Assembly: GCF_030684315.1 (NCBI RefSeq)
Contig: NC_081360.1
Coordinates: forward strand, 36,749,818 to 36,813,817
Source: Stegostoma tigrinum
Lineage: Eukaryota
Length of the DNA stretch: 64,000 nt
Direction: 5' to 3'
Shown: in pieces, positions 14,801 to 58,945 of the stretch
Numbering within the stretch: the stretch's first letter is position 1
Layout: each line of letters begins with the position of its first letter
Notes under the pieces: model-generated
Told to the model about the DNA's origin: nothing
The model's input: the letters and a program-made list of their open reading frames with translations, nothing else
Database searches by the model: none
Position numbers and translations under genes: made by a program

Positions 14801-17800
14801 TTGGTGCTCGGGTGTGGGGTCATGATCGAGGGGGCGGTAGGAGGTGGTGTCGGAGAGTTGGTGTTTGGCCTCGGCGATGTAGAGGTCAGTGCGCCATACT
14901 ACCACTGCGCCGCCCTTGTCTGCGGGTTTGATGGTGAGGTTGGGGTTGGAGCGGAGGGAGCGGAGGGCTGCCGTTCTGAAGGGGAGAGTTTGGAGTGGGT
15001 GAGAGAGGTTGAGGCGGTTAATGTCTCGATGGCAGTTTGAGATGAAGAGGTCGAGGGAAGGTAGGAGGCCTGGGGGTGGTGTCCAGGAGGAGGACTTGTG
15101 TTGGAAGCGGGAGAAGGGGTCAGTGGAGGGAGGGTTAGGTTCCCGGTTGAAGAAGTAGGCATGGAGGTGAAGGCGGCGGAAAAACTGTTCTATGTCCAAC
15201 CGTGACTGGTATTCGTTGATGTGTGGTTGTAGGGGGACAAAGGTGAGCCCTTTGCTTAGGACTGACTGTTCGTCCTCAGTTAGTGGAAGGTCTGGGGGAA
15301 TGGTGAAGATGCGGCAGGATTCAGTGTGGCAGTCTTCTCTGGGGTTGCTGGCTGTGGAGGTTGTGGGCGGAGCAATGAGGTTGTCAGCCGTGGGCGGGGT
15401 TCCGTCGGCCGTGGGCAGGGTTCCGTCAGTGTCGGCTGTGGGCAGGGTTTCGCTTTGCAGAACACCTCCGCTCAGTTCGCAATAAACAACTGCACCTCCC
15501 AGTCGCAAACTATTTCCACTACCCCTCCCGTTCTTTAGATGACATGTCCATCATGGGCCTCCTGCAGTGCCACAATGATGCCACCCGAAGGTTGCAGGAA
15601 TAGCAACTCATATTCCGCTTGGGAACCCTGCAGCCCCATGGTATCAATGTGGACTTCACCAGCTTCAAAGTCTCCCCTTCCCCCACCGCATCCCAAAACC
15701 AGCCCAGTTTGTCTCCTCCCCCCACTGCACCACACAACCAGCCCAGCTCTTCCCCTCCACCCACTGCATCCCAAAACCAGTCCAACCTGTCTCTGCCTCC
15801 CTAACCTGTTCTTCCTCTCACCCATCCCTTCCTCCCACCCCAAGCCGCAACCCCATCTCCCACCTACTAACCTCAACCCACCTCCTTGACCTGTCCGTCT
15901 TTCATGGACTGACCTATCCCCTCCCTACCTCCCCACCTATACTCTCCTCTCCACCTATCTTCTTTTCTCTCCATCTTCGGTCTGCCTCCCCCCTCTCCCT
16001 ATTTATTCCAGAACCCTCGCCCCATCCCTCTCTCTGATGAAGGGTCTAGGCCCGAAACATCAGCTTTTGTGCTCCTGAGATACTGCTGGGCCTGCTGTGT
16101 TCATCCAGCCTCACATTTTATTATCTAGGAATATCATCTGTTGTCTTTTCCCGACATGAGTGAATTTACAGAAGTTCGCACAATGTCATGGTGTTCTCCA
16201 TTGAACTGCTGTTTTTCTCACATGCTCCAGTTACTGACCTATCATTAGGTATACCTGGGTCTCTATTTGGCACAATTATTTGTGGATCTTCTATTAATCC
16301 TGGTACCTAATTCTCGCCAGTTGGAAAACATGGTGTTTGGCCTTGTTCTCCCATTAGGAAACCCGGTTCTGTTGTTTCCTGTCAACAATGGGTGGTTTTA
16401 GCAAAACAAATGCCTGGCACAACTGAAACTTTAATGCTAGCAATACTAGAAAACTTTGATTAGTTGAATAGGTTGGATTCTGTTATGCTAACAAAAATTG
16501 GCTCAGTTCTGGGTTGCTGCTGTGATTTTACCACAAATTTCTATGTCTATCACTTTTGATAGAAGTTGATCATTTATATATACTTCTTAACTTGTCTGCC
16601 CACAATAATTTAGTATGCTGAGAAATGATTGCAATTGCCGGTGTCTCAGTTACGGCTCTTACTTTTGATGGTGATTTGAGTAGTCCCTTAGCTTCAATAA
16701 CATAATAAATCTTTGAGGGAAGATTTCCTCACTCTAATCGTAATGTCCAAGTCTCTTCAGAGTAGCATCCAAATTGTGCAGATGCTGTTTCTCATTTCTC
16801 CCCATAAGTGAAATATTATCTGAGTAACACTGGACCCCTGTCAATCCACTTAAATCTGATGCCTGCCATGTTGGAATACTGCAGGTGCAGATGCGCTTCC
16901 AAATAGACGTCTCTTGTATTTGAATAGTCCTTTATGTATTACAATCATTAAATATTTCTGTGATTCAAAATCTGCATTCCTCAGAAGATAAACTTGACAA
17001 CGGTCAATTTTACTGAAAACTGGACCTTCAGCTAGTCCAACAGATAAGTCATTGCTTAAAGTCAAAGGATACTGTTCAGTACACTATACCATATTAATAA
17101 TGACCTCAAAGCCATTGCTAATGCAAATTGATCCATATTTCTTTACTGCTGATGAGAGATGTGGCCTAATCACTCACCTTTATGGTTTGGGCACTTCTGT
17201 TTGACCTGCCTCTGTAATTCTGCCTCAATCTCTGGTCTGATTGCATGTGACATTTTGCTTGATTCTCATCTTTGATTCTGAATTTGGCAGATATCTTTTC
17301 CATACTTCAGAGATCCCCATTGAAAACAATGGCACCTTTCTTTAGAATTTGTGATAGATCAGTCTCAGAACTTGACAAGAAACTTACTTCAACCCAGTTG
17401 AATTTGATTTTCTCTAACCATGTTCTTCTAACAAATTTGGAAGATGCCCTTTGATAATTTGTAAGCACAAATCTTCAGACTGACCGTGTAACTGAACATT
17501 CACATTGATACAATCCCTTAAAGGCACCACTTGGCCAATGCACAGTCTTAGGGCAATTTTTGAGGACTGCAATGCAATGTGACTCAGCCGCTTTTGATAC
17601 ACCATTTCAGGTATAAATGAAACTGCCAATCAAATGCTCATCTCTATTCTTCTCATTTTACCATTCAGTAAGGGGGTGACTGGATCTGGATTGGTGATAC
17701 CAGCAATGACCAATATGTTTAATAAGAGCTCCTCTTTCGACAGTGAGGTGGGACTTTACTCTACCTCTTTTGTGCCATGTAGATTTTCTTTCCACTCTTT

Positions 17801-20800: not shown

Positions 20801-22699
20801 TGACATATGGGTTCATGCACACCTGTGGCATTCACTGCCAGATGTTCCCTTCCGTCATGCTACAACTAAGTGGCTGCAATGGTAGCGATGACTTCAGAAG
20901 CATGTCATCTACCTGAAGTTTCATCCTCCAACTCAGTGACTGTCACAGTCAAGATCCTCCTACTTTGTCTGCAAATCTCTGTAAATAGATACCCACTGAG
21001 GTGAGGTAGTACTTATGGGCTGGTGATGTGACAGTGCATTCTCTAAGGCTTCCTGCTACTCTTGAGAGGGTGTTTGTGCCCCCATGTCTCTCTAGCTTTT
21101 TGCCCTTTGGCTTGAGTGGACATGCAGATTAAAGGGTCATGGGCTTCCCATTGCTCTGTTCCAAGCAATTGTTAGTATGAAGCGCAATGTATCTGAATTT
21201 AATCACATGTTGCTGCACTTGTCCAATTACACTTGTGGCACCATTTCTATGGTTGGGGGTGCTTCCATGGCTACTGACTACCTCTACAAATTCTTTCTAG
21301 ACTTGCTTGATCAGTTTCCTCTTTGGAGACAGTAGGAACTGCCAATGCTGGAATCTGAGATAACAACGTGTAGAGGTGGATGGACTCAAGAGGCCAGGCA
21401 GTATCAGAGGAGCAGGAAAGCTGACGTTTCGGGTCTGGATCTTTCTTCAGACCCTTTCCTGAAGCAGGGCCCAGACCCAAAGCTCCTCTGATGCGGCCTG
21501 GCCTGTTGTGTTCATCCAGCTCTACACCTTGTTAATAAAATGTGAGGCTGGATGAACACAGCAGGCCAAGCAGCATCTCAGGAGCACTCCTGAGATGCTG
21601 CTTGGCCTGCTGTGTTCATCCAGCCTCACATTTTATTATCTTGGAATCTCCAGCATCTGCAGTTCCCATTATCTCTACACCTTGTTATCTCAGTTTCCTC
21701 TTCCTTGTTTTATCCCTTGGAAATAAAATCTCCAGCTTTGCCCTTGCAGCCTTGATAAAAGCCTACAAAGCCATGGTGTCACCTTTGTCTTCCTTCTGCC
21801 TTTGTGATACAGTTTTTCTTTAAATTCTTGGGATTCTAAGTAGGCTGTCACTATTAATAAGGGGTGGATAACATTTTACAAATTGTATCAACATTTGCAA
21901 TGCTATTACCTGATGTTGCCTTTGCATTCTCACTGTTCGGGTCCTATGTCACTTTGCTATAAATTGACTGGCAGACAGAATCTTGCATGTGCCTGAATGG
22001 TCGCAACCTGCAGCCTAGCTGCAACTATTTGTTAGTTTTAATATTGCCCACTTTTTATATTTTTATCTTCAGAGATATCAATAGCACTCTATATTTACCT
22101 ACAACACAAAACTTAGTGCTGTTTAACAAAAATCAATTTATTTAACAAGTAAAATATCTCAGAACTGTACCTGCTTTAAGGAATTCAGAAGGTATATCTG
22201 CCCCTAATTTTGAAGTTCCATCGATGTTGATTTCCAGATTAGCACGCCATATTTCTGAAAATCGTTTTCTTTTATCAGTTGGCATGTAGGCTCCATGCCA
22301 AAGTGCTTTCATAGTGTAGTCCACATTTATCAAAATTTGCCCAATTAGTGTATCATGATATGCTGGCGACAGGAGACATGTAGTACTACAATCATAGTTG
22401 CCATCTAAATAAATAGTTGGAACTTGGTTTAGAATATAAATACCTATCACCAATTCTCGCAAAATTTGTTGAACTTCTTTGTAATTCAATGGAGCATCTG
22501 GTGCCATAGGAGTTAGAATTACAGCACTGGAATAACTGAAGTCTTTCATTTGGCTTGAGAGCCCAGTAGGGTACTCTATTGGAAGGTGAAACTTATCAAT
22601 GGGCTGCAACCATGTACAGGAAGTTATGGTCAGCAATTCCTGTAGATCACTCAAGTTATATTTGCCAAGGACAGCACTTGCACTCATTTGCCCTGCCAT
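5721..22699 (-). CDS. ANKAR: Ankyrin and armadillo repeat-containing protein, 5' part (3 coding exons; gene presumably continues beyond left edge)
   Basis: Exons 22699-22171, 11855-11418, 5884-5721 join in frame via GT-AG (377 codons). Peptides ILRELVIGIYILNQVP, YHDTLIGQILINVDYTMKALWHG, DPTYDPN, YQRLQQRL, KTERELPP, YFHLHGGIEFDI match the ANKAR N-terminal region as I recall it; neighbour of ASNSD1 as in other vertebrates. Confidence 0.9.
7428..7645. mobile_element. Short fold-back element derived from Penelope terminus
   Basis: Inverted arms; 14-bp TSD agagctatgaggtt 7414-7427 / 7646-7659. Confidence 0.85.
9705..9859. mobile_element. Short Penelope-terminus element
   Basis: TSD cctatttctca 9694-9704 / 9860-9870. 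Confidence 0.85.
9804..9831 (-). ncRNA. Minimal hammerhead ribozyme core in short Penelope derivative
   Basis: Identical intact core CTGATGAAGGGTCTAGGCCCGAAACGTC. Confidence 0.65.
11418..11855 (-). CDS. ANKAR: ANKAR second coding exon (438 nt, phase 1-1)
   Basis: Acceptor tgcag|GCCTT, donor TCTG|gtaaag; GLIDISTDPDY...SRLLPPFS. Confidence 0.9.
12663..16124 (-). mobile_element. Penelope-like retroelement (RT + GIY-YIG), 5'-truncated, with inverted copy of its 3' end; disrupted
   Basis: ORFs 14042..15508 (KPADKGG, PKIHK, GRPIVS, TMDVQSLYT, KGVAMG) and 13017..13886 (VVYCIHC..LYIWETKR..RFAEH); ~15451-16124 is the reverse complement of ~12695-13370; TSD ctagga(a/t)atcatctgt-type at 12646-12662 and 16125-16141. 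Confidence 0.92.
12760..12787 (-). ncRNA. Minimal hammerhead ribozyme core in Penelope terminus
   Basis: Identical intact core; inverted partner at 16034-16061 (+) ends GAAACATC. Confidence 0.7.
18660..20360 (+). mobile_element. Decayed Gypsy-type LTR retrotransposon fragment
   Basis: TGTAAT-starting LTR-like region, gag start MPLFEKLDPFNPAIED, RT remnants (EDLYAKLA..LSFTKLDISHA) with many stops. Confidence 0.6.
21324..21689. mobile_element. Nested pair of short fold-back Penelope derivatives
   Basis: Outer TSD tcagtttcctctt 21311-21323 / 21690-21702; inner element 21535-21672 with TSD ctctacaccttgtta 21520-21534 / 21673-21687. Confidence 0.8.
22171..22699 (-). CDS. ANKAR: ANKAR first coding exon
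   Basis: ORF 22142..22699; in-frame TAA just upstream of ATG 22699; acceptor tttgtag| at 22770; donor GCAG|gtacag after 22171. Confidence 0.9.
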
Positions 22700-23444
22700 T
22701 CTAGTTGGTGCGTTTTAGTTTTCTAGAGAAATGCAGATTAGCAAGTCTTCATTTTCCACCAACTTCCTCCTACAAAGTAACAGTCCAGTTTTAGTGTATT
22801 AGTAGTAAAACATTTTATTTTCTTGTAATGTTTATAAAATATTTCCTAAACCAGTTATGTTGTTAATCATGAAAGTAAATTATATTAGGCCTTTGATATG
22901 AATAACAAAAAATAAGGAATTAAAATGATTTTAGTTGCAGGCATATCAGGACAGCTTAGTCATATGAAGTGCACATCCTAAGCCATATGGAGACTTGTAG
23001 ACATTTCCTGTCACCTTAATGGTGTGCAGGACATGAGTCTCCAGCTGCAAAGACTTGAACAATGGGTTCTAGAACTGAAACAGAGTTCAGTTGTGTGTAA
23101 GAGTACTTATGGATATGAAAAAAAATCAAATTGGAACAGAATAAGAGGCTTTTGTGTTGTAGTGGTAGTTTCACTACGTCGAGCAGGAGGCCCAGATTCA
23201 AGTCCCACCTGCTCTATAGACGAGTTATAACATCTCCGAACAGGCCGATTAAAAAATATCTAGAACTGGAACAAAGATTATTTTCACTATGGTACACTTA
23301 TGGGCAGTACTGCACACTTGGGTGGTAGAATCGAAGTCTCGGAATTCATTCTAAATAGTGTTAAAAACCCAATAACACAAGAGAATGTAAAAAGATTAAA
23401 GAAAAAGATTATTGTTGAAGAGAAAATTATTTAAACAAAGTCAA

Positions 23445-31968: not shown

Positions 31969-34900
31969 GTATGTTTACATCTTTTAATCTTTCTTTTTGA
32001 AAATGCACAGCTTTAATTGTGTTAAGTGCTTTCAGCTACAGTTATGAACTGGATTTGATTATCTAGGGCATAATTTCAAAGTTTGCAGATAACACAAAAC
32101 TTGAAAATGTGAAAATGAATCTAATAGATTTCAGTAAGACATACAGTACACTTGTGGAACTGAATTCAGAAGAATATAACATGTTTCAACTTATTAACAA
32201 AAATTAGAAAAGGTAATAGACTTTGGTGCTTCTGTTCTATAGTGGTATTGAAATACCGCACTAGAATTAGAGATTTTGATTGAACAACTTAAGATTTTAT
32301 TAATGATCTTTGACACGATTGAAATTGTAAATCCATGCGACATTCAAAATGATTTTGAATTTAAAGATGCATAGGATAGGTGAGGAAAAAGAAATTAACC
32401 AAATTTTCCTTGTGGTTTGTGTATACCAAATGCTAATATCAACACTGATTTATTTTGTGGTAAAGATAGACATTTTTTCTCATTCACCAGTGCATCAAAA
32501 CAGAAAGCAAATAAACAGGAAAATGTTGGTGTGGGAGGAACAGAATGAAACTTCAACTTGTGTGATTGTGGCCTATTTTATAGATTATAGAACATTACAG
32601 CACAGTACAGGCTCTTCGGCCCTCGATGCTGTGCCGACCTGTCAAACCGATCTCAAGCCCATCTAACCTACACTATTCCTTGTACGTCCATATGCTTGTC
32701 CAATGACGACTTAAATGTACCTAAAGTTGGCGAATCTACTACCATTGCAGGCAAAGCGTTCCATTCCCTTACTACTCTCTGAGTAAAGAAACTACCTCTG
32801 ACATTTCTCCTATATCTTTCACCCCTCAATTTAAAGCTATGCCCCCTCGTGCTCGCCGTCACCATCCTAAGAAAAAGGCTCTCCCCATCCACCCTATCTA
32901 ACCCTCTGATTATTTTATATGTTTCCATTAAGTCACCTCTCAACCTTCTTCTCTCTAATGAAAACAGCCTCAAGTCCCTCAGCCTTTCCTCGTAAGACCT
33001 TCCCTCCATACCAGGCAACATCCTAGTAAATCTCGTCTGCACCCTTTCCAAAGCTTCCACATCCATCTTATAATGCGGTGACCAGAACTGTACACAATAC
33101 TGCAAGTGCGGCTGCACCAGAGTTTTGTACAGCTTCACCATAACCTCTTGGTTCCGGAACTCGATCCCTCTCTTAATAAAAGCTAAAACACTGTATGCCT
33201 TCTTAACAGCCCTGTCAACCTGGGTGGCAACTTTCAAGGATCTGTGTACATGGACACCGAGATCTCTCTGCTCATCTACACTGCTAAGAATCTTACCATT
33301 AGACCTGTATTTTGCCTTCCGGTTACTCCTACCAAAGTGCATCACCTCAAACTTGTCTGCATTAAACTCCATTTGCCCCCTCTCAGCCCAGCTCTGCAGC
33401 TTATCTATGTTTCTCTGCAACCTACAGCATCCTTCATCACTATCCACAACTCCACCGACCTTAGTGTCGTCTGCAAATTTACTAACCCATCCTTCTACGC
33501 CCTCATCCAGGTCATTTATAAAAATGACCATCAGCAGTGGACCCAACACCGACCCTTGCGGTACACCACTAGTAACTGGTCTCCAGGATGAACATTTCCC
33601 ATCAACTACCACCCTCTGTCTTCTTTCAGCAAGCCAATTTCCGATCCAAACTGCTATATCTCCCACAATTCCATTCCTCCGCATTTTGTACAATAGCCTA
33701 TTGTGGGGAACCTTATTGAACGCCTTGCTGAAATCCATGTACACCACATCAACCGGTTTACACTCATCTACCTGTTTGGTCACCTTCTCAAAGAACTCAA
33801 TAAGGTTTGTGAGGCAGGACATTCCCTTCACAAAACCATGCTGACTATCCCTAATCAATTTATTCTTTCCTAGATGATTATAAATCCTATCCCTTATAAC
33901 CTTTTCCAACACTTTACCAACAACTGAGATAAGGCTCACTGGTCTATAATTACCAGGGTTGTCTCTACTCCCCTTCTTGGACAGGTGAACCACATTTGCT
34001 ATCCTCCAATCATCTGGCACTATTCCTGTAGACAATGACGAGTTAAAGATCAATGCCAAAGGCTCGGCACTCTCCTCCCTGGCTTCCCAGAGGATCCGAG
34101 GATAAATCCCATCCGGCCCAGGGGACTTATCTATCTTCACCCTCTGAAGGATTTCTAATACCTCTTCCTTGTGAACCTCAATCCCGCCTAGTCTAGTAGC
34201 CTGTACCTCAGTATTCTCCTCGACAACATTGTCGTTTTCTAGAGTGAATACTGCTGAAAAATATTCATTTAGCGCTTCCCCTATCTCATCTGACTTCACA
34301 CACAACTTACCACACTTTTGTCTTCTTTGCAAAAGAAAGTAAAATTTAAAACTGATCTTTAAAACACATAATGAGCAGACACTACAATGGTATCATTCTC
34401 TTGGTTATTGTTAGTAATTGCTAACTAATAATAATCTTTGCAGACAAATGATCTTTATTATGTGAAATTTGAAGAATGGGCAAAGGAGTTTCAACTAGTT
34501 AAAGTTCTAAATGATGGAACAAAAAACAATGAAGTAAGTGATAGAACTTCAATAGTCTCGATATATAATATATAAAGACGAACATTTTCAGTAATGTTAG
34601 ATCATTAGTAAGAATTACGTTTAACTTTCAGACAAAGTTAAATTTCAGCTGATTAAGATTTTTGTTTAATTGCATTGTAAAAGTTCAGTCCATTTGTTAG
34701 GAAATGTGAATACAGAATATAAGCAATGATTGAAGTAAGATTCTTTACTATAAAAGGTCTTGACTGCACTTCATTTTAGTTTCCAGACCTGGTCCGTACA
34801 AATATACAGGTAACACCTTGGTAGAACTTAACAAAATTGTAACAGTTTATAACTTGATTTGAAAATAACAAACTGAGATTGAATTGTAGATCATTGATTC

Positions 34901-45243: not shown

Positions 45244-45596
45244 GATAGTAGGAACTGCAGATGCTGGAGTATCTGAGATAACAAGGTGCAGAGCTGGATG
45301 AACATAGCCGGTCAAGCAGCGTCAGAGGAGCAGGAAAGCTGACATTTTGGGCCTGGACCCTCCTTTTAGAAAAACCCGGAAGGGTGTTCTGAATAAATGG
45401 GGGGTGGGGTGGGGTGGGGAAGGCAGATAGAAGACGGATAGAGGAGAATCCTCTATCCATCTCCCCCCCCTCTCTATTTATTTCAGAATCCCCTTCCCCT
45501 TCCCTGAAGGGGGGTCCAGGCCCAAAACATCAGCCTTCCTGCTCCTCTGATGCTGCTTGACCTGCTGTGTTCATCCAGCTCTACGTCTTGTTATTC
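45244..45596. mobile_element. Fold-back Penelope derivative between convergent 3' ends
   Basis: TSD ctagctttttaaa 45231-45243 / 45597-45609. Confidence 0.85.
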
Positions 45597-46744
45597 CTAG
45601 CTTTTTAAATTTTGTAATTATAAAGTTAACTGCAGTCATAACATTTACACACTCCTGTGCATCAATCTCAGTAATTTTAAGAATAAATTTACCAATTTAA
45701 GATGGTAAAGTTAAGTGAGTTGAGGAATTCTGGAGCCAAGGATTGAGTCAAATCAAAGAAGTTACATTTCTTTCTAATTTTAAGGAACCTTTGTCAGAGA
45801 TAAATCAAGTGAAAATTAAATCTTTGTTGGGAAAGAGTGTGAAAAATATTTTTATTATTTAACAGGCAAAGCTCAATAAAGGGTGGGGGGTAAGAAGTGT
45901 GATTGAGGTATAATTGTGAGGCACAGACACAGTACATGGTAAGAATCTCTTTCCCCATAGTGTGTAAGACCAGAGGGCATAAATTTAAGGTGAGGAATAA
46001 GTGGTTTAGAGATCCGAAGGATTTTTTCCCTCCTTACCCAGTGGTAGAAACATGAGAGGGTGGTGAAGGCAAATACTCCTGCAACATTTAAGAAGCATCT
46101 GCATGATCACTTAAATTGCCAGGGCATAATAAGCTATGGACCAAATAAAGATAAATGGGATTAATGTAGTTTGGTGTTTGCTGGTAAGCATAGTCATAGT
46201 AGATCAAAGGGCTTTTTTCTATGATGCATGATTCTATGCATTAAGAAACAGATTTGCATTAAGTTTGAGATCCTGAGCTAAATCATGCAGTTTGGTTGAC
46301 CACACATTTCCAAAAATTTGATTATTTCCTGTCTGGCAGCATCAAAGACAGAAAACAGTTAATATTTCAAGTCCAGTGGCCCTTCATCAGAACTGACCAG
46401 TGTTTGTTTCAGATTTCCGGAATCTGCACTTCTGTATGTTTATTTTCTGTCTGAATTAGTTGGGTTAGCCACTAAAGGAGTTACCATCTGCTGGTGCTGT
46501 GAATGGGAAGCAAATTAATTGATTATGAAATGCAATTGCAATTTCTTTAGAGAATGAGTAATTCCAAGATCTGACTTTCAGCAATATACAGTACTCATTT
46601 AATTGCATTATATACATGGTATAACAACAGGCTAACAGAACGCCCCCTGCAATTGTATTTTGATTGGTTTAAGTTTTGGCATTAATATGGCAGTTCATTA
46701 TTTTTCAGTGCCAGTTTCAGGGAAAGCAAAGTACAGCACAATGA

Positions 46745-47000
46745 CTAATCTATCGAGCTTTGTGATAGCCTGTTACATTTATCAGAAGCCTTTTCTTTGT
46801 GGTTTTCCATCTTTGCAATGCGAGATCCAAACTGCATGGCTCTCTTTGGGAGAACAGCAGATGCTGTAAGTCCAAGTTCCTTTGCAGCCATTCGTAGAAG
46901 CAATTTTTCGCCGATCCCTCGAGGCAGAGTCAAGTCTGCTTTCTCCCACACAGGAAGTGAATTCAGAAAAGAAACAACTGCTTCATCCAAAAACGGAAAT
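46745..47000 (-). CDS. ASNSD1: ASNSD1 last coding exon
   Basis: tttcag|ATTTCCG; FPFLDE...SQSSID*; candidate polyA signal on minus strand at 46444-46439. Confidence 0.93.
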
Positions 47001-50000
47001 CTGAAATGACAAAGATTTAAAATGTTTAACAATTTTATCATATGTATCTTGTATAAAATTCCTTAACCATTCATTCAATTTTTATATTACCATTTCCTCC
47101 CTAACTGGCTTTATGCTGAGCTTGAAGTGCTATGTACACTATCACTCAAGGTTAACAACAGAGGGCAATGATGGCAATCAGAGGAGATGCCAGTGATTGC
47201 CTCAGTGAAACTGTACCAGTCAGATTGTCTTTCTAGCACGGTAAGAAGCTACAGGATAAACGTATAATGATATCTACTAACTATACCACAACTCACCTTT
47301 TTAAAATGCTTGTTTTTTTTTGCTTTATGTACTGTTAAAAATGAAAACAACCTGAGTTATGTCAAATACTATTGTATTTCTCAAAAAACCAAAACTGCAG
47401 ACAAGAAAAAATTGTCAGTATACAACTGCTGGTCCAACACCATTGGTATTGTCGGAAACCAAGCAAGATACAAGCCCACGTGGCTGTGTTTTTCCAGATC
47501 GTGAAGACTGCTTAAGTGAACTGGCTAGTTACATCTCATGTTACTTCTGATTTAATTACTAAATTGTGTCTGTTTGTCTTCGTAAGATTGAGGAGTAGAA
47601 TTTTTAAAAAAAAGAGTTTAAATCAAACATTAGATTACTAGATATAACTTTGCTCTGTTAAAGTTATTATGAATAAATTGTTAATTTTGTTTCCACTATA
47701 TTGGTGCCTGTTATCAGTTATTCAAAAAAGTTGATCAGGAATTCTTTGGAGCTTTGTGTTGCAAATACAGGGATATGGAGGCTGATTTGATTTGGCTTTC
47801 TGTCATAACACCAATTATAACCATAAAATTCAAAAGATCATTAACCCCAACTGGTTCATTAATGTCTTTTACAGATGGCTTATACGTGACTTGAAACCAA
47901 TGCAATGTGGTTGACTGTCAGCTGCTGTCTGAAATATCCTAGCAAGCCACTTAATTACAATCACACTGCAAAAAAAAACTTGAAAGAACCACTTTGCATC
48001 AACCCAGGCACCAGCAACAACAAAAATCTAAATGTCTCAACAGCAGGACAAACCCAGCAGAGGTAGCAGTACAGTGGTATACATTTGGGAGGGAGCTGCC
48101 TTAGGAGTCCTCAACATTGACTCTGGACTGCAGGAAGTCTTTTAGCATCAGGTCAAAGACCACATATGTAAAGTCTGCTGCTGCTGAGTTAAAAGTACAT
48201 GGGCAATCTTCAATTTTAAACTTCAGCTTTCTCTTGAGTTTGCAACAAAATTTGCATTCAGTGGTGAATTATAATGCATTTTTGCATTACAACATGTTCA
48301 AAGTTGGCACAGACGTACCTTGCCTCTTTTCCATGGTCTCCAATGACTCGGTCATCTCGCCCAAGATTACGTGAGGAAATGCGTCCAAGTTCCATCCCCA
48401 GTTCTTTGACTAGGCCTTCAAAACCTGATGTTTTGTAGCAGACACGGTGACGAGAATAACCCGCAAGTTGTTCATCAGCTCCAATCCCAGTCAATACCAC
48501 CTTTTAAAAATAAGTCCATAAAGATTTTACTCCAGAATCTAAAATTAAAATGTACTACTGTTCCAGAAACTAATTACTTTACATAGTAAAGCAAATTCTG
48601 TTTATACCAAGCCATATTTACATAGGCCAAAATGTGCATCTTAATTTTAGATATTGAGACTTCAAATTACTAAATATTGAATTTAAACCTGTGGTTATCT
48701 TTTAGCATAGTTGAACATGCAGCTTGTTGCTGCAGTAAAATAAGATCAACTTTGAAACCCATTTAATAAACTGTTGCAAAGTGAAGTTACGTGGGTTTCA
48801 CAATTTTTGCAGCATTATCAAATGTTGTTTTGATGAAAATACAATGGACAGAGGATATAGAGAGAAGTTGTGGCAGTTGAGGGAAAAGAAAAAGTACAGC
48901 TTGTTTAAAACTCCAAGTACAAACCAGGAAAATCATCCTATTTCCAGTCATTCATGGTCTGTAAAAAAATAAACTAAGTTTCATCACAGCACCCTCAGTC
49001 TCAAACTGGAGAATGGAGACCTGGTTTCCTCAATTACTTCATTACTACAAGTTTGCCATTCCAAGGATTTGTTCGGCAAACTTTACTACAAATTTATCCT
49101 TCCTTGGATAAGGTGAACAAAACTACACAGTACTCTGGGTGAGGTTTCACATGGTTCTGTGTAAATACAACAAGGCCTCTTTACGTCTGTACTGATTTCC
49201 TTAAAATGAATTGTCAACATACTGTTTTTGCCCCTCTATTTGCTTGCTGCACGTACATGCCAGCTTACAGTGACTCGTGGACAAGCACGCTCATTCTTTT
49301 GGATATATACATTTCCCAACCTGCCACGATTTAAGAAGTCTTCAGCATTTCTAATTTTTTTTGGCCAAAGTGAATACCTTCCCACTTATTTACATTTTAT
49401 TTCAGCTGCATTTTCAAACCTGGGGGTCTGAAAACTAGTAACTGTTCCTCTTGCATCTCCATGCCAATGATGACCCAACCATATCTTATGCTTTTTCCTA
49501 TGTTCTAATCCTGATGAATGCAAAAAAAGCTTTGACATCATATTGTCTTTTAGCAATGTTTAAATTCTTTGAAGCTGCCTAAACCCCTAAGGGCAGATCA
49601 AAGACAAAATCTATTTGAAGAACAGTAGTGAAATGTTGAACAAAATCATTGGGAGCAACCATTTTCTTCTAGATCAGTCTGATTAATTGAGGGCCTCATT
49701 TCATTTTAAGATTAGTTTGTTGAAATTAACGCTAAATTCCTCAATGATGTTGAATGCAGGAAGTTTCTTTGTCGCTTTCTACATATGACTTAAAAGAGTA
49801 CACAAAACAATAAATTATGTGGTGTGTTTCTTTTTCAGGCAAGAGAATAAGTGGAGGTAGAGATTTTTGCGTTCAAAATGCGGGATGAAAATTATTCTTT
49901 TAGGGATAATATCACACCTTTGCACAGCTTATATATGGTTGGATTTCTCCATTACTTGTCCTGGTACCAATACCTCTTGCAGCAAACCACACAGCACAGC

Positions 50001-51357
50001 CAATGCTGTCATCCAGTACTGTGTCCAAAGGTCGCACCAAATGACTAATCCGCTGTTGTCTCATTTCATTCAGCTCTTCTAATGTGATATTGATTTCTAC
50101 AAAATTCCAATTTCTGGCAGGGTTTATAATTTGTAATTCTTTTAAACCTGACAGTCCACTGATCCGGTCAGGCACATTAAAACTAGTTGTCTCTTTAAGA
50201 CCACTATTGTCCTCTTGTAGAGTTTCCTCTTCAAGTGCCCTGGAAGCATTGCTTTTCTTTTGTTTCGCTGAGGTCTTCTGCTGCTTAAAGGCAACATTCA
50301 ATAGATCAATAGGTTCATCTTGTGGAATATGATGGTCAGCCAAGGCTGCGAGAACCATAGAATCAACACCGCCAGAAAACAGAATAGCAACATTTGCTTT
50401 ATTAGACACTGTGAACTGGGATGAGGGGTGAATTTGACATCTTGGTAAGAAAAGCACTCGACGTCTAACAGATTCACTCAAAACATTAATGAACTGAAGA
50501 ACTAATTTCTTCTTCTTTTCATCTGAAAGAAAACTCTCAACATTTACTGAAGATGCTTCACTATCTGCAGTGTCAACACATGTCTCACACACACTGTAAT
50601 TCATTGGAGTAATGGGTGCTATAAGGAAAAGTTTTGATCCATTCAAAAATACAGAAACAAAACTAGGTAGTTCTTCAATAAACTGAACATCTTCACCTAA
50701 ATGTAAAGTCTTGAATTCATATTCAATGGACCTATATTTCCATGGATACCATGATATTGCCAATGAATTGCCACCGGTGTTTCTCTGGAGGTCAATTTTG
50801 TAAATTCCACGTGCTGGTACTTCCTGCCAAGGAATATTTCCATACTTGGAAACAGACTGACTCAGACTCACTGATGTAAGTGTAAGATAGAGATTTCCAG
50901 CATTCTTAAACTGCCACAGTAAACTACGCCGACCAAAAAAGTCTCGACCAAACCACAAGCAGTGACTGAATGCTTGGTAGTATATAAACGTCCAAGGTCC
51001 TTGAATAGCAGAAAAGACAGACAGAGTGGATTCTTCATTCTTACATGAAGACAAATGTTGAAGAATAATCTGAGTGTCATTGCCTTCGGGTCCAATTTCA
51101 ATTCCTCCAAAAACCTCCCCATTCCAAAGGAGAAGGTTTCCCTGAGTGTCCTGCAGAGGTTGTGGCTTTAGGCACCCTCTCATATGAAGCACATGACCAG
51201 AGAAAAATATATTATAACCCAGTTCAGGCACTTCCTTGGATAACTGTTGACTGCAGTTAGGTCCTCTCCGTTGTAGGCTTTCAAGCGTATCTTTTCCCAA
51301 AGTATTAGAAATACCTTCCTGAGGGTTTAGAACTAACATACAACAAATACCACACAT
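46745..51357 (-). CDS. ASNSD1: Asparagine synthetase domain-containing protein 1, 625 aa, 3 coding exons
   Basis: Exons 51357-49918, 48500-48319, 47000-46745 (1878 nt). N-terminal MCGI (Ntn amidotransferase), [63 protein letters not shown]. Confidence 0.96.
48319..48500 (-). CDS. ASNSD1: ASNSD1 middle coding exon
   Basis: taaaag|GTGGTA...GCAAG|gtacgt; [19 protein letters not shown]...GKEAR. Confidence 0.93.
49918..51357 (-). CDS. ASNSD1: ASNSD1 first coding segment (within exon 51485-49918 shared with ASDURF)
   Basis: 481-aa ORF in track; donor AAG|gtgtga after 49918. Confidence 0.95.
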
Positions 51358-51420
51358 TTTGTGTGTGTTTCAATTTACTTAGTAATTTCAATCAAGAACA
51401 AATGTTGATCTTGCTGTTAG

Positions 51421-51485
51421 TTATTTGGTAGTTTTTTCAGCATTTTCTAATTCTTGGTATTCTTTCTTCATCTCATCAAGAGCAC
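51421..51485 (-). CDS. ASDURF: ASDURF last coding segment, 63 nt upstream of ASNSD1 ATG
   Basis: tttacag|GTGCTCTT...AAATAA. Confidence 0.9.
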
Positions 51486-54400
51486 CTGTAAAAAGTACAG
51501 TTATTGTTAGACTTTTGAAATGACGCATAATCTAACTTATGAGAAAGTAACACGTAAATAAATAATGCAATCACAGCAGTTTTCCTACAAAAAGATACAA
51601 ATTGATTTGAGTTTCCTAAAGATTTGAACAAGGCGAACATTCCAAAAGTAAAAATGCCTGTGGAAAAATAAACTGTTGTCTTATTCTATTCTTTTAACAC
51701 AGAGAAGGTTTTTTTAAATTCATTCATGGGTGGGGGGTGTTGCAGGCTAGGCCAGCATTTATTGCTTATCCCTAACTGCCCAGAAAGTAGTTAAGAGTCA
51801 ACCAGATTGCTGTGGGTCTGGAGTTACATGCAGGACAGATCAGGTAGGAATGGCAGTTTCCTTCCCTAAAGACATTAGTGAACTAGATGGGTTTTTCCTG
51901 ACAAACAACAATTCACTGTCATCTTTAGTTTCTTATTTCCAGACTCTCAGTGAATTAAAATTCCACCATCTGCCATGGCAAGATTCGAACCTGAGTCTCT
52001 GGATAACAGTTCAGTGATAATACCACTCGGCCACTGCCTCCCCTGTGAGCACATTATAGGCAAAAGATTCACGCCAAAATTAGATGGTGTAAGAATACAT
52101 AAATCCTATAATCTTGTTTTTATTGAATGAAGAGGAGAATTAGAGACTCTATCAAATATTTTAATAACTACCTTGGGTGTCCGCCATATTTACATATTTA
52201 AGTACATTATTTGGTCCTTTCAGAATTGCAATATAGGTTCTAAAACTTAAATCTGTAATGAGATCAGTTTTCTATTAACTATGTTATTACTAGTTTCAGT
52301 TTAATGAATATAGAAAATGAGAAGTAGATGATGTCAGCAGGAATAGGCTAATTGGTCCTTCAAGCTAGCCTTGTCATTTGACAAGATCATGGTTGATCTG
52401 ACTGTTACTTTAACCTACTTTCTTGGCTACAACTGACATTCTTTCCTAACTTCTGTGTTAGTTAAGAATGTATCCACCTCTATCTTTAAAATATTCAATG
52501 ATACTGCTTTCACTGCCCTGTTGAGTGATAGAACAGGTTTTTGTTTCAGTTCCTTGAAATATATATTAAATATATATAGATTTCTACATATTAAAACATG
52601 AAGGGATACAGGACAAAGCAGCAAAATAGTGTTGCAGTAGAAATCAGCCATGAACTTGTTGAATGGTGATGTGGGCTTATAAGGTTAAAAAGTTTACTCC
52701 TGCTTCTATTTCTTATGTTTTTGAACTACTCTTGTGGACCTCCTAATTATCAGTTCAAGGCAGGACTAAAACGATTGACAGCTAGTCTCTCAGAAGGGGT
52801 GGCGCAAACGAAAAGGACATATTAAAGGAGTGGGAGAAGGCGAATTAAAAGTGGAGGAGGAAAAGATGATCTAATGTTTGTGTTGCATGAATATAAATGT
52901 AACAAAGGAATATTCAACCCATTCTGCATAGTTGCAACATATGAACCACTTACTACGCTCAATGCATTTTACAAACACGCGTAAGATACATTACTTACAT
53001 TTACATTCACTTAGAGTCTGGGTTTGATCTGCCAAGAAAAATATATTGCTGTTGGGCTGTTGCTTATAAACTCTCTGAAACAGAATGAATAACAAGTATT
53101 AATAAAACTAAAACTAATCACGGAATCACTTTGTAAAAAAACAATACTGAATCTAGTTTGGAGAATGGAACATAAGTGAAAATATGTGGAACACGTTTTC
53201 AGCGGGGGATCATTTGGAAAATAGTGATCACAAGAATATTAGAGTTGAAACAGTTTTGGAAAGCACAATGAAAAATCAGATGTGAGAACATTCAGGAAGA
53301 GTTAATTTTGGTCAGTTGGAAAGGCATCTGGTTCACGTGCACTGCAATCAAAGATTAACTGGTAAAATTGTAAATAAGCAACGAAATATTGATTGGATGC
53401 AGACTGCACAGCTGCCTCAATATCTAACAGTATGGAGATTAAAATGAAACATAAGTGTAAGCTTTTGATAAATACAAAGTAACAACTTCATAACTTGTCT
53501 ATAGACAGGTGGCTGGTCTCATGTTTAAACAATACTGGAGAAGCTTCTAGCTCTCTTCCTCCTGTGTGGAGAAGTAACAGAAATATGCCTGGTGGTTGTT
53601 CTTACTCAGCATTTCCTAAAGACTGCACTCTCTCCAAATTCTTTGTTGAAGGGAAAAAAAGCACGTTCAGAAACACTGAAAAAGTGAACTCTCAACTTTG
53701 AAATGAAAGACTCATAATGGACATAATTTCAAGGTCTGCAGATGACATGAAAAATTGGTAAAATTGGTAAACAATTGGCAAATGAAATTCACAATGAAGA
53801 AATAAGAAGGGATACATTTTGCTAGGAATGATATCAGTCAAACTTAAGTGTATAATTTTAAGAGGGGTGCTTGACAGAATACCTGGCATAGGCAGTTCAG
53901 AAGACTATTAAAAAGACTGACAAAATCCTTGATTCTGTAAACAGAAGTAACAAGTACAAAAGTAAGCAAGCAAGTTTATCTAGCACTAGTTAGGTCTCAC
54001 CTGGAGGCTCGTGGCAAATTCTAAATACACACTTTGGCAAGGATATCAAACATTGGAAATGCTATTAAGAATGTTAAGAGGAAATTTCATAGAAGTGTTC
54101 AAAATCACGAAGAGTAAATAAGAACCTACTTCCAGAGGGGTAATGGTTTCTAACCAGAGGGCAAAGATTAATGGCATTAGCGAAAGAACCAGAGGCAATG
54201 TAAGGAATTGCACAGTAAAGTGTTGATCTACATGCACTTCCTGAAAGGGTAGCTGAAGCAGATTCAGTATCAATTTCCAAAATGGAATTGGATAAATACT
54301 AAAAGAATAATGGAAAAAAATGGAAGTGGGACTCACTGGATAGCTTTTACAAGGAGCTGCCACAGGCATGTTGAGCCAATTAGACCCTTCTGTTCAGGAT

Positions 54401-57400
54401 CATTCTTTGAGTTTAAAACACTGTGCAAGGCTAAGTGGCTAATGCTCTGGAGTGGGACCTCTGGATAACTTCCCCTGTCTGCAATCCATACTGAAGCCAT
54501 GTGAAGATAACCAGTCCCCCACCTCAGCAAATTCTGAAAATCAATCCTGGGTCCATGTTTTTATAACCATCACAGCATCTAATTCTGATAAACCCAAAAT
54601 CTGTTCCTCTATTATCTTGATTGCTATATTATTCCAAATATTTAACACTATGAAGAGTTTTCCTGCCACCTATTCTCAGTTTACTTATCAGTAATTTTTG
54701 TTTATTTAGGAAAAGTTTATTTATCTTACACTGTAATTTGAAGGCAATCATTATATTTATGCCAGAACTGAACTCCTGCGAATATTAACTTGGGGTTCAT
54801 TGACTTACCCGATTTTTCTTAAGGTTGGAGAGCTCATCGATGACAACAATTTGTTCTTTTATCTGTTAAAACAAAGTTACGTTTTACATTGAAAAAGACA
54901 GTAAGGAAACAAACAACTGTAACCCAGTAGACACTGCAGTTCAGCCAAAATGTCAACTTTGAACGGATTTCTCTCAAAAATTGCAAATATTTTTGTTGTC
55001 TTTATGGTGTTGTGAAATGCAACGAGCAGAGCGTTATTCATTCCTTTTAAAAATGACTATATTTGATCCTTTGAAAATTAGTAACCCTCTATTTTCTCCC
55101 CTGCACGCACAATCTCTGAAAGCCAGTTTTAATCAGCTCGGCCATCCTTTTAGGCACTGCATTCAAGCTCATACTCATTCATTGCATTTAGAGGTCCTTC
55201 CTCAAGTCACTTTTAGCTCTTTTGCCAACCACTTTAAATCAATATTTGACATACTTGCCTTTTGTCAATGGGAAATTTCTCTCTATTTACTTTGTTTATT
55301 CAGCATGATTTTGAACACCTATCAAGTCTCCACTCAATCTCTTCCTCTTTAAGGAGAACAACTGCAGAGTTGTTCACCTGTGTATTTTTCTGTGCTTTTT
55401 AAGAAATCTTCACAGCCTTCTGAAAGTGCAGCGCCAGAAGTGGACATAATGCTTTAGTTGGTGGTATTAATGCCAAGGTCATGGGTTCAATCCCCATACT
55501 GACCAAGTCGTCAAGCTTCCATCGATGATTGACATTACTTGTGTTTGCTTGAAGGATGTCTTCCTGACAATTCTGTGTGGCTGTCTCAACTTTTAGAACA
55601 GCACGGTGGCTCAGTAGTAAGCACTGCTACCTCACAGCACCAGGGACCTGTGTTTGAGTGGAGTCTTGAGCTACTGACTGTGTGGAGTAATCACATTGTC
55701 CCCATGTCTGCATGAGTTTCCTCCAGATGCTCTAGTTTCCTCCCACAGTCCAAAGATGTGCAGGTTAGGTGGATTGGCTGTACTAAATTTCCCAATATGG
55801 GTTAGCCGTGATAATTACAGGGTTACAGGGATAGGGTAGGGGATGCTCTTCAGAGGGTCAGTGTGGACTAATGGGCCAAATGGCCTGTGTCCACACTGCT
55901 GGGATTCCACAATCAATGAGGCTGAACCAATTTTCTGCAAAGGTTCATCATAACTTGCTTTTTCACACAATGCTTCTATTTAGAATGCATAGGACCCTAT
56001 AAACATTTTTTTCAAAACTACTTTTGAACCTGCTCTGCCATCTTCAATGATTTGAGCACATATAGACCTTGATGACATTTTCCTGCACATCTTTAGAAGT
56101 ACAGCCTTTATGTTACATCACCCTTCCGACCAACATTCCCTCAGCCACTCCATAGGTTTCTCACATGGCAATCAGCATTTGTTTCTGGAAGTTGCAGCCA
56201 GGAAAATTATGGGAATGCTGTTTCTTATTAAAATGCATCCCTTTGCACTTCTCAACATTAATTTGCTTTCATCATGTCTACATGTTCAACTAGCGTGTCT
56301 ACGACCTCAAATTCTCTCACTGCACTCTTTATAATTTGATATACTTCCACATTTTATGTCATGCATTCACTGTAGTAGGGTTTCAACTTCTCAGCATGCT
56401 CTGCCAAAGTAGTTTGTTGTGAATTTGTTGTTAGATTTCTTAATGTCTGTCTTATACTGATGGCTTCTAGTTATGCCCATATCCGTAAATGTAAGCAGTC
56501 TTTGTACATACAGTCTATCAAAAACGTTCTTAATTTACTGATGTCAAATGAAGTCAACATAAGCTTTTCAATTAAACTAAACATGTTACTTATTTATCCG
56601 TGATGAAAGTTTACATGCTAAAAAAAACTTCGATGTTATCAGCAGAAATTTTACCAATGAAAATCTGTTGTTCTAATATGCTGAATTGAATTCTATGATG
56701 TACAAAAGCTCAAAGGGCCAGCCTTCTTTAACAGAAGATTGCCTTTTTAAAAAGTGGACAAAAAGTTGAAGTTACCAAGCACTGACTGTTCTTCAAACAG
56801 GAAGTTATGTTCAAACTTTATTTATAAGCATAATCAAACTCTCCCTCAATTACATAAATTTTAATTATATTTTAATGTTATAGCTTGATCATAGGTTAAC
56901 GGTCAGCTAAACAGAGGTGCACTGAACAACCATTACCCAACAATTATTTCAATGCCATCTTCTTTGCCAATAAGCATCTTATGCATCACTTCAAACACCT
57001 TTATGAAGTCATTATACATCACAATCAATTCTGTTCCTTCATCAAAATTCAATAAAGTTTGATAACACAATTTGCCTGACAATTCTATGCTGGCTTTCCT
57101 TTACTAATTTATGTTTGTACAAGTGACATTAACTTTGTCCCTGATGTTCCATGTTCAGGCCTGATCCGAATCAGCCCCATTCCGCCTACTACCCTTTCAC
57201 CACATAAGACTTTCGCAGTCCATTTTAGTGTTGTTTCATACTTGTTCATTGGTCCTTTCTTATTTTCTTTTTATTTCCGTTCCAAACGTTATACATTCAG
57301 CTCATAATCTGTTTTCTACTCATTGTTATTCCTTATCTATTTTGTTATCCAGAGAATTCCAAATTTGGTTATCCTACCTTGCCCTCTCAGGAAATGTCTC

Positions 57401-58803
57401 TCCACCACACTTAAACCATCTCGTCTTTACAAATAGATTAAAATCAATTAGGTTTCCCCAATTCGCAATAAACAACTGCACCTCCCAGTCACAAACCATT
57501 TCCACTCCCCCTCCCATTCTTTAGATGACATGTCCATCATGGGCCTCCTGCAGTGCCACAATGATGCCACCCGAAGGTTGCAGGAACAGCAACTCATATT
57601 CCACTTGGGAACCCGGCAGCCCAATGGTATCAATGTGGACTTCACCAGCTTCAAAATCTCCCCTTCCCCCACCGCATCCCAAAACCAGCCCAGTTCGTCC
57701 CCTCCCCCCACTGCACCACACAACCAGCCCAGCTCTTCCCCTCCACCCACTGCATCCCAAAACCAGTCCAACTTGTCTCTGCCTCCCTAACCTGTTCTTC
57801 CTCTCACCCATCCCTTCCTCCCACCTCAAGCCGCACCTCCATCTCCTACCTACTAACCTCATCCCACCTCCTTGACCTGTCCGTCTTCCCTGGACTGAGC
57901 TATCCCCTCCCTACCTCCCCACCTATCTTCTTTTCTCTCCATCTTCAGTCTGCCTCCCCCTCTCTCCCTATTTATTCCAGAACCCTCACCCCATCCCCCT
58001 CTCTGAAGAAGGGTCTAGGCCCAAAACATCAGCTTTTGTGCTCCTGAGATGCTGCTGGGCCTGCTGTGTTCATCCAGCCTCACATTTTATTATCTTGGAT
58101 TCTCCAGCATCTGCAGTTCCCATTATCACTCATAGGTTTCCCCATTAATTTGATTCCAAATTACCAGGACAGATCTGTTCTCAATGCTTTAAAATTGATT
58201 TTGGATCACTTTTCCAAGCTGATTTAAACTCTAAGAATAGCTAACCACTCAAATGGTTGTTAAAATAAAGATTTTACGATTTCTGCATTTAAAAATAATA
58301 ATGTGCAAACTGTCAAGGCTCCTACGTTTAGCGGGTTACTTACACGGTAAAGATTCACATCAAAGGCAAGCCTGAGAAATCAGTTCAAACTATTTTCATT
58401 TTTGAAACGTTGTAAAAATTCAAATGTGAAACGGTTCAAGATGCATTCAAGAGAGAACTGGATGATTCCGAACATGCAAGGGATGGCGAAAAAGCAGGAG
58501 GTTGGCACTCGGTAATATTGGTCATCTGAAAAGCTGGTGCAGGCACGAGGGGCCGACTGGCATCCATCTGCACACGCAGATTTTGATTCTACGGCTGCCA
58601 AAGTGAAGGACATATCTTGCAACCCTGTAGCAGGGCAGGTTCACCAGGGAATTGTTACTCATGGGTATGGCTCCTGCTGCCAAAGCGACGTGGCTAGGAA
58701 CAAGTTCTTGTTAACTCTGAATTGCTAGGAATCATACCTGTTTACTTAATTCTTCTCTCCGGACTCCCTCACTATCTGCTACTTTGCTTGAGACGGCCGC
58801 CAT
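51421..58803 (-). CDS. ASDURF: ASNSD1 upstream ORF protein (prefoldin-like, PAQosome subunit), 86 aa, 4 exons
   Basis: Exons 58803-58738, 54862-54809, 53074-52999, 51485-51421 (261 nt, GT-AG): [86 protein letters not shown]. Closely resembles human ASDURF as I recall it ([34 protein letters not shown]). Confidence 0.93.
52999..53074 (-). CDS. ASDURF: ASDURF exon 3 (76 nt)
   Basis: tttcag|AGAGTT...AAAT|gtaagt. Confidence 0.9.
54809..54862 (-). CDS. ASDURF: ASDURF exon 2 (54 nt)
   Basis: ttaacag|ATAAAA...CGG|gtaagt. Confidence 0.9.
55460..55505 (+). pseudogene. Degenerate 3' half of a tRNA-Ile(AAT)-like sequence
   Basis: gtggtattaatgccaaggtcatgggttcaatccccatactgacca resembles the 3' half of vertebrate tRNA-Ile(AAT) with CpG decay; 5' half missing. 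Confidence 0.45.
55598..55910 (+). mobile_element. V-SINE (HE1-like)
   Basis: cagcacggtggctcagt head plus V-domain. Confidence 0.7.
57461..58132 (+). mobile_element. Penelope-like element 3' fragment in ASDURF intron 1
   Basis: Same sequence as the right arm of the 12.6-16.1 kb element; 12-bp TSD taggtttcccca 57449-57460 / 58133-58144. Confidence 0.9.
58738..58803 (-). CDS. ASDURF: ASDURF coding exon 1
   Basis: gtgATGG Kozak context; donor CAG|gtatga. Confidence 0.85.
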
Positions 58804-58945
58804 CACCTCGTCTTCACCGTCCAACACTGACTCCACTCCCCTCGGGTTGTTTCCATGTGCGGCTGCCGGAAGTACACCCCGTGACAACACGCATGCGCGA
58901 CGGTGGCAGACTACGCTCTCTAGCGCTTCCGGCGCCGAGCAGTTT
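58804..58945 (-). promoter_or_regulatory. CpG-rich housekeeping promoter / 5' leader of ASDURF-ASNSD1
   Basis: ETS/GABP CCGGAAGT 58866-58873 and CTTCCGG 58926-58932; NRF1-like CGCATGCGC 58890-58898; CpG enrichment. Confidence 0.7.

What the first reader, a model, noticed from the sequence alone, without database searches (positions are those of the whole stretch)
51357..58803. Hidden four-exon microprotein (ASDURF) makes ASNSD1 a bicistronic mRNA in this lineage
Seen: four small exons (66+54+76+65 nt) with canonical splice sites join into an intact 86-aa ORF that the ORF track does not show. Its stop lies in the same exon as the ASNSD1 ATG, 63 nt upstream, with no ATG in between. The uORF start has a strong Kozak context, so ASNSD1 must rely on reinitiation or leaky scanning. 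Known: human ASDURF is a prefoldin-like PAQosome subunit encoded in the ASNSD1 leader. Inference: the two-protein transcript, including intron layout, predates the shark/bony-fish split, and pipelines likely annotate these exons as 5' UTR.
Basis: partly seen in the sequence, partly recalled or inferred. Interest (0 to 1): 0.8.

Follow-up and report, generated by a model that had tools for sequence, protein, structure and literature searches.

The report
Shark two-protein mRNA: ASDURF plus ASNSD1
In this carpet shark a small four-exon gene for a predicted chaperone subunit (ASDURF) is spliced onto the front of the ASNSD1 messenger RNA, which likely makes both proteins; this is the same layout already described in humans and already listed for a skate, so it is real but ordinary.

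Summary
Confirmed, but known. The four exons are there with GT-AG ends and give an 86-codon frame that stops 63 nt before an intact 625-aa ASNSD1. Exon 3 passes the Pfam ASNSD1-SEP cut-off, and the family is found only at this locus in the genome. Single spliced contigs from two studies join exons 2-3-4 and the later ASNSD1 exons without a mismatch; the exon 1-2 joint is inferred. Exon 2 and 3 sizes (54, 76 nt) and intron phases match human. A bamboo-shark ortholog folds as a beta-prefoldin.

Novelty is low: a 2026 paper's dataset already lists the layout in a skate mRNA, and NCBI names ASDURF in a chimaera and two mobulid rays. Small additions: a hagfish gene model links the two genes, whereas a sea urchin has them on different chromosomes, which would date the pairing to the vertebrate stem. 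Earlier scan notes on other DNA report ASDURF-like frames ahead of other genes (untested here).

The parts
58738..58803 (-). ASDURF coding exon 1 (22 codons, strong start context)
54809..54862 (-). ASDURF exon 2 (54 nt, same size as human)
   Evidence: spliced joint seen in X9 and X10
52999..53074 (-). ASDURF exon 3 (76 nt, same size as human; predicted beta-hairpin)
   Evidence: PF21975 32.8 bits; joints seen; model of ortholog
51421..51485 (-). ASDURF last 65 coding nt and stop, at the start of the large shared exon 4
   Evidence: joint seen in X9, X10 and the relative X4
51358..51420 (-). 63-nt spacer, 71% A/T, no ATG, three further in-frame stops
49918..51357 (-). ASNSD1 coding part of exon 4 (1440 nt), starting Met-Cys-Gly
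48319..48500 (-). ASNSD1 exon 5 (182 nt, same size as human)
46745..47000 (-). ASNSD1 last coding exon to the stop (625 aa in all)
58803..58856 (-). 17-codon upstream frame whose TGA overlaps the ASDURF ATG; in the transcript only if the 5' end lies above 58856
   Evidence: the longest contig would reach 58866 if it continues through exon 1 (inferred)
58866..58932 (-). TATA-less, CpG-rich promoter-like stretch with ETS-type (58932, 58872) and NRF1-type (58898) motifs
   Evidence: motif names recalled; similar motifs precede primate ASDURF records (by eye)

Best explanation
This is the shark ortholog of the vertebrate ASDURF-ASNSD1 unit: one spliced transcript carries both intact frames, and it likely yields mostly the 86-aa beta-prefoldin ASDURF and, from a minority of ribosomes, ASNSD1. 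Shown here: the exons, both frames, their joining from exon 2 onward in one contig, family membership, single copy. Inferred: translation in shark, and assembly of ASDURF into the URI/UXT prefoldin-like module of the PAQosome as in human. Inferred route to ASNSD1: most scanning ribosomes start at the strong ASDURF AUG; those that slip past it either scan through the weak internal AUGs or translate one of the tiny internal frames (1, 2, 3, 8, 16 or 30 codons), all of which end at least 59 nt before the ASNSD1 AUG, and then reinitiate across the A/U-rich spacer. ASNSD1 likely needs its own start because it begins Met-Cys, the free N-terminal cysteine typical of class II amidotransferases (recalled). 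Identity and layout: about 0.95; the stated confidence is for the whole account including this route.
For: Contigs X9 record 23 (2037 nt) and X10 record 12 (2000 nt), two studies, 0 other letters on the listed pieces, run exon 2>3>4>5>6; depth in the three bins at the exon edges equals exactly what that one contig predicts (238.2, 55.1, 72.9 in X10; 13.3, 3.1, 4.1 in X9). Four stops in frame between the two proteins exclude read-through. Four of six internal AUGs lack both -3 purine and +4 G; two have -3 purine only; none of their frames overlaps the ASNSD1 start. ASDURF exons 2-4 are more conserved than ASNSD1 in 9 of 10 comparisons. Human: 154 of 155 long reads cover both frames, ribosome score 537 versus 63 (PMC13303939 supplement); removing the ASDURF AUG raises downstream reporter output 2.27-fold (PMC8894207). 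Ortholog model pLDDT 86.5, helix-hairpin-helix; 13 of the top 13 Foldseek rows are prefoldins, best TM 0.84-0.87.
Against: No ribosome profiling or proteomics for any shark was available. The runs are contigs of unrecorded library type and drop rare forms; exon 1 was outside the stretch laid. The skate spacer has two ATGs, one in strong context and out of frame across the ASNSD1 start (by eye), and the human spacer is only 21 nt, so spacer design is not conserved. A strong ASDURF context argues for little leakage. No Foldseek match reached E 0.001, and VIA Z 10.2 and 9.9 are tied with an unrelated helical hairpin at 9.4. In Callorhinchus ASDURF exons 2-4 (70%) are not better conserved than ASNSD1 (72%).
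Confidence: 0.6

Rival explanations
1. Same transcript and proteins, but ASNSD1 is made mainly by ribosomes that finish all 86 codons of ASDURF and reinitiate 63 nt further on.
For: Strong ASDURF context and six intervening AUGs make leakage costly; the shark spacer is AUG-free and A/U-rich; the human uORF costs only about twofold in a reporter.
Against: Reinitiation is known to fall off steeply with upstream frame length (recalled); spacer length varies from 21 nt in human to 58-63 nt in skate and shark.
Confidence: 0.25
2. ASNSD1 comes mainly from minor transcripts that lack an intact ASDURF frame (other first exons, exon skipping or an internal start), so the long mRNA is in practice an ASDURF message.
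For: Records with another first exon or skipped exons exist for skate, turtle, seahorse and primates; contigs drop rare variants.
Against: No second contig covers the exon edges in X9 or X10; 154 of 155 human long reads hold both frames; a human reporter with the intact leader still makes the downstream protein.
Confidence: 0.12
3. The upstream frame is an untranslated or neutral remnant in sharks.
For: No direct shark translation data.
Against: Intact frame over four exons; 75 of 86 residues identical to the bamboo-shark ortholog, 58 of 64 in exons 2-4 against 90% for ASNSD1; the only copy of the family found in the genome.
Confidence: 0.03

Closest known systems
Human ASDURF-ASNSD1 bicistronic mRNA (Cloutier et al. 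2020, seen only as a cited reference; PMC13303939 text and supplements)
   Same: Gene order, four-exon upstream frame, 54- and 76-nt middle exons, phases 0-0-1, stop and ASNSD1 start in one exon, 182-nt next exon.
   Different: 86 versus 96 aa (shorter exon 1), 63 versus 21 nt spacer, a 17-codon upstream frame overlapping the start instead of a 2-codon one well upstream.
Thorny skate (Amblyraja radiata) asnsd1 mRNA XM_033023777/8 in Dataset EV6 of PMC13303939
   Same: Cartilaginous fish, ASDURF frame directly ahead of ASNSD1 in one predicted mRNA, annotated only as asnsd1.
   Different: Spacer of about 58 nt with two ATGs; one variant lacks the ASDURF first exon (by eye).
STREMI/SLC35A4, MIURF/MIEF1, PYURF/PIGY bicistrons
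   Same: Conserved microprotein ahead of an unrelated main protein; 'bipartite origin, bicistronic transcription'.
   Different: SLC35A4 is intronless and proposed to be retroposed; ASNSD1 here keeps two coding introns, though its first 480 codons are one exon.
Beta-type prefoldin subunits (PFDN2, archaeal prefoldin beta)
   Same: Helix - single beta-hairpin - helix; top structural and sequence matches.
   Different: 13-20% identity; ASDURF belongs to the URI/UXT prefoldin-like complex in human, not the canonical hexamer.

Membership tests
ASDURF (PF21975 ASNSD1-SEP) | Sequence match above the curated cut-off | tested here: met
   Exon 3 alone 32.8 bits versus cut-off 27; ortholog P0121 99.6 bits
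ASDURF (PF21975 ASNSD1-SEP) | Beta-prefoldin fold with one hairpin between two helices | tested here: met
   Tested on the 87%-identical ortholog P0121, not on the window's spliced protein: H3-34 E41-45 E52-56 H57-85, pLDDT 86.5; prefoldin beta chains rank first, TM 0.84, best E 1.2e-3
ASDURF (PF21975 ASNSD1-SEP) | Subunit of the URI/UXT/PDRG1 prefoldin-like module of the PAQosome | not tested
   Shown in human cells (passages of PMC11009110 and PMC10187264); no shark partner sequence was folded with it
Vertebrate ASDURF-ASNSD1 bicistron | Both intact frames on one spliced transcript | tested here: met
   One contig joins exons 2-6 in 2 of 2 own-type runs; exon 1 joint inferred
Vertebrate ASDURF-ASNSD1 bicistron | Conserved exon sizes and phases | tested here: met
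   54, 76, 182 nt and phases 0-0-1 as in human
Vertebrate ASDURF-ASNSD1 bicistron | Two-frame form is the predominant transcript | tested here: inconclusive
   No other contig at the exon edges, but contigs drop rare forms and give no levels
Vertebrate ASDURF-ASNSD1 bicistron | Both frames translated from that transcript | not testable with these tools
   Needs ribosome profiling or mass spectrometry in shark; human data
ATF4-type relay leader (short first uORF lets ribosomes bypass the second) | Short first uORF inside the transcript and conserved in position | tested here: inconclusive
   17-codon frame overlapping the ASDURF start; short first frames in human and three cypriniform fishes, none in the shown mouse, chicken, cow or dog leaders, and the skate has GTG at the like place (by eye)

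The most novel reading that the evidence does not exclude
The pairing formed once in the vertebrate stem, before hagfish and jawed vertebrates split, from two genes unlinked in echinoderms, and in sharks a 17-codon frame whose stop sits on the ASDURF start codon works as a relay that carries ribosomes past ASDURF to ASNSD1, giving a tunable ratio of the two proteins. The hagfish dating alone is about 0.65 likely; the relay about 0.2.
Probability: 0.15. Interest if true: 0.5.

Novelty: new member of a known kind. Interest (0 to 1): 0.2.

Why it matters
It fills an annotation gap in shark genomes and confirms that a two-protein mRNA has kept its exon layout since jawed vertebrates arose (about 450 million years, recalled), but that much follows from data already in print. 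The open and more interesting question is why a chaperone subunit stays welded to an unrelated enzyme-like gene; the hagfish model narrows the date of the fusion, and the varying spacers and leaders across vertebrates offer natural variants for testing how the second protein is reached.

Tried and rejected
A conserved ASDURF-ASNSD1 fusion protein as a third product: 8 fused database models (hagfish, Narcine, chimpanzee, Esox, Turdus, Columba, Lates, Perca) enter ASNSD1 at different places, from about residue 30 to past 375, and no such joint was among those listed for the shark runs (46 joints not shown); read as cryptic acceptors or gene-model errors. Stop read-through: rejected, four in-frame stops. 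A second or processed ASDURF copy: none among 5 candidates scored (lower bound). PDB search with exon 3 alone: 0 hits; with a 40-sequence profile 5 of 5 hits were beta-prefoldins but at E 0.25-0.83. No RNA holder is on record as RNA in the run listing; the contigs are spliced. dN/dS could not be computed: the difference table was cut and the tool that fetches DNA around database proteins was closed, so whale-shark, chimaera and hagfish loci were not read. Literature searches with no hit: dicistronic + asparagine synthetase domain, bicistronic + prefoldin + CDC123; among the 10 listed of 2,573 papers for ASNSD1/hagfish/lamprey/shark none mentions ASNSD1. No complex prediction was sent.

Full report
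Observation. On the minus strand, exons 58803-58738, 54862-54809, 53074-52999 and 51485-51421 join into 86 codons and a TAA; the introns (3875, 1734, 1513 nt) are GT-AG. The stop lies in the same exon as the ASNSD1 ATG at 51357, 63 nt upstream, with no ATG between. ASNSD1 continues through 48500-48319 and 47000-46745 as an intact 625-aa protein, 603 of 624 aligned residues identical to the whale-shark record; the animal is therefore a carpet shark.

Identity. Exon 3 alone passes the cut-off of Pfam PF21975 (ASNSD1 upstream ORF protein) at 32.8 bits, exon 4 matches the next model positions below cut-off. A search of the 3.2-Gb genome with the family gave 2 matches among 5 candidates, exons 3 and 2 of this locus, so this is the only copy found. 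The spliced protein is 75 of 86 identical to Chiloscyllium punctatum chiPu_0010847 (P0121) over all four exons. Exons 2-4 are more conserved than ASNSD1 in 9 of 10 species comparisons, for example 77% versus 60% against duck; the exception is Callorhinchus, 70% versus 72% (the Mobula pair uses two species, the hagfish value only exons 2-3). P0121 folded with a 40-sequence alignment gives helix 3-34, strands 41-45 and 52-56, helix 57-85 at pLDDT 86.5. The first 13 Foldseek rows are prefoldins, beta subunits first (TM 0.84, rmsd 1.1, best E 1.2e-3, none under 0.001); the wide VIA search also ranks two archaeal prefoldin chains first (Z 10.2, 9.9) but within 1 of an unrelated hairpin.

One transcript. 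Four runs of assembled contigs were laid on 45500-55600. In both runs that match the window (X9, X10; two studies; library type not on record) a single contig of 2037 or 2000 nt runs exon 2 > exon 3 > exon 4 > exon 5 > exon 6 with no other letter on the listed pieces. A relative's run (X4) shows the exon 3-4 joint too; the other relative (X1) does not cover the upstream exons. Exon 1 was outside the stretch, so its joint is inferred: the contigs match 59 letters at exon 2, which is 54 plus the 5 letters that exon 1 shares with the intron end, and they carry 129 and 92 further letters, room for exon 1 plus 63 or 26 nt of leader. Depth in the bins at the exon edges equals what that one contig predicts, so no second form is assembled there; contigs drop rare forms, so this is weak.

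How the second protein is reached. The ASDURF start has G at -3 and +4. Six more AUGs follow before ASNSD1, opening frames of 30, 1, 3, 2, 16 and 8 codons; four lack both favourable positions, two have only a purine at -3, and all stop at least 59 nt before the ASNSD1 AUG, which has A at -3. Four in-frame stops rule out read-through. I therefore favour leakage past the first AUG followed by scanning or reinitiation after a tiny frame (inferred; 0.6 for the whole account), ahead of reinitiation after all of ASDURF (0.25) and of minor ASDURF-less transcripts (0.12). Human data fit a major upstream and minor downstream product: ribosome scores 537 and 63, and 154 of 155 long reads with both frames (PMC13303939, supplement file 5 row); deleting the uORF start raises downstream luciferase 2.27-fold (PMC8894207, passages). 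Against a tuned spacer: it is 21 nt in human and holds two ATGs in skate (by eye). An AUG at 58856 opens 17 codons ending in a TGA that overlaps the ASDURF ATG. It would be in the mRNA if the longest contig reflects the 5' end; short first frames also occur in human and three cypriniform leaders but not in the mouse, chicken, cow or dog records shown, and skate has GTG at the like place (by eye). I keep it as a lead only.

What is known. Human ASDURF is a 96-aa subunit of the prefoldin-like module of the PAQosome (Cloutier 2020, seen only as a reference; passages of PMC11009110, PMC10187264, PMC8567396), essential in some cell lines independently of ASNSD1 (passages of bioRxiv 10.1101/2025.07.07.663426), detected in mouse (passages of PMC11781309), annotated by GENCODE (passage of 10.1101/2021.06.10.447896) and present in Arabidopsis (passages of PMC10893143). 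Human exons are 90 coding, 54, 76 and 71 nt, then 182 nt for the next ASNSD1 exon: sizes and phases match the shark. PMC13303939 (passages, section 13, parts 1 and 20-22 of 137 of Dataset EV6 plus searched rows; figures not seen, three ASDURF rows not seen) names ASDURF-ASNSD1 among 14 human bicistrons and lists the thorny-skate asnsd1 mRNA with ASDURF in its leader. NCBI names ASDURF in Callorhinchus milii and two Mobula species. The annotation gap is still real: ASDURF records were seen for 3 of the 11 chondrichthyan genera with ASNSD1 records (120 of 310 hits listed, so distant ones may be hidden).

A small addition. A UniRef hagfish (Myxine) model, ASNSD1-like isoform X2 (P0148), begins with ASDURF exons 1-3 (PF21975 48.8 bits) and continues into residue 439 onward of isoform X1. 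That places ASDURF exons in the ASNSD1 transcription unit of a jawless vertebrate, if the automatic model is right; I could not read the locus. The paper's dataset has no hagfish and only an ASNSD1 row for lamprey, whose leader is short. In the same dataset a sea urchin has ASDURF on chromosome 13 and ASNSD1 on chromosome 11, and amphioxus and fly ASNSD1 leaders show no ASDURF. This brackets the pairing to the vertebrate stem (about 0.65). Fused models in seven other species enter ASNSD1 at differing places and do not point to a conserved fusion protein. Earlier AI notes of this scan report ASDURF-like frames ahead of CDC123 in a probable diatom, ahead of YCED1 in a moss, and standing alone elsewhere; I did not test them and found no paper for the first. 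Cloutier 2020 and Fig. 7D of PMC13303939, which I could not see, may already cover the taxon range.

Verdict. Real, well supported, orthologous to a described human system: new member of a known kind, interest 0.2.

Noticed in passing
window 22142-22714 and 11398-11901 (-): Long open frames that look like exons of ANKAR, the gene that follows ASNSD1 on the same strand in human (name and synteny recalled; Pfam gave no hit over cut-off).
   Followed up: partly
window 32668-34392 (-) and 13017-15550 (-): Retrotransposon remnants: a 574-codon reverse-transcriptase frame of CR1-LINE look, and a Penelope-like element with further fragments at 280-1232, 15535-16037 and 57521-58047 (family names recalled).
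   Followed up: no
window 58852-58872 (-): The AUG of the 17-codon upstream frame sits in a CACATG box just after an ETS-type motif; the skate record has CACGTG at the like place (by eye). It may be an E-box; human ASDURF levels track MYC.
   Followed up: partly
window 46603, 46444, 45856, 45482 (-): Four poly(A) signals after the ASNSD1 stop; the deep X10 contig ends at 46665 while X9 runs to 45561, a hint of alternative 3' ends.
   Followed up: no
window 52997-54737 and 46973-47614: Partly spliced contigs: X4 keeps most of intron 2 while exons 3-4 are joined; all four runs have a contig running from the last exon into the last intron.
   Followed up: no
P0148, P0275-P0281: Eight database models fuse ASDURF to differing internal points of ASNSD1; the bicistron appears to mislead gene predictors.
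   Followed up: yes
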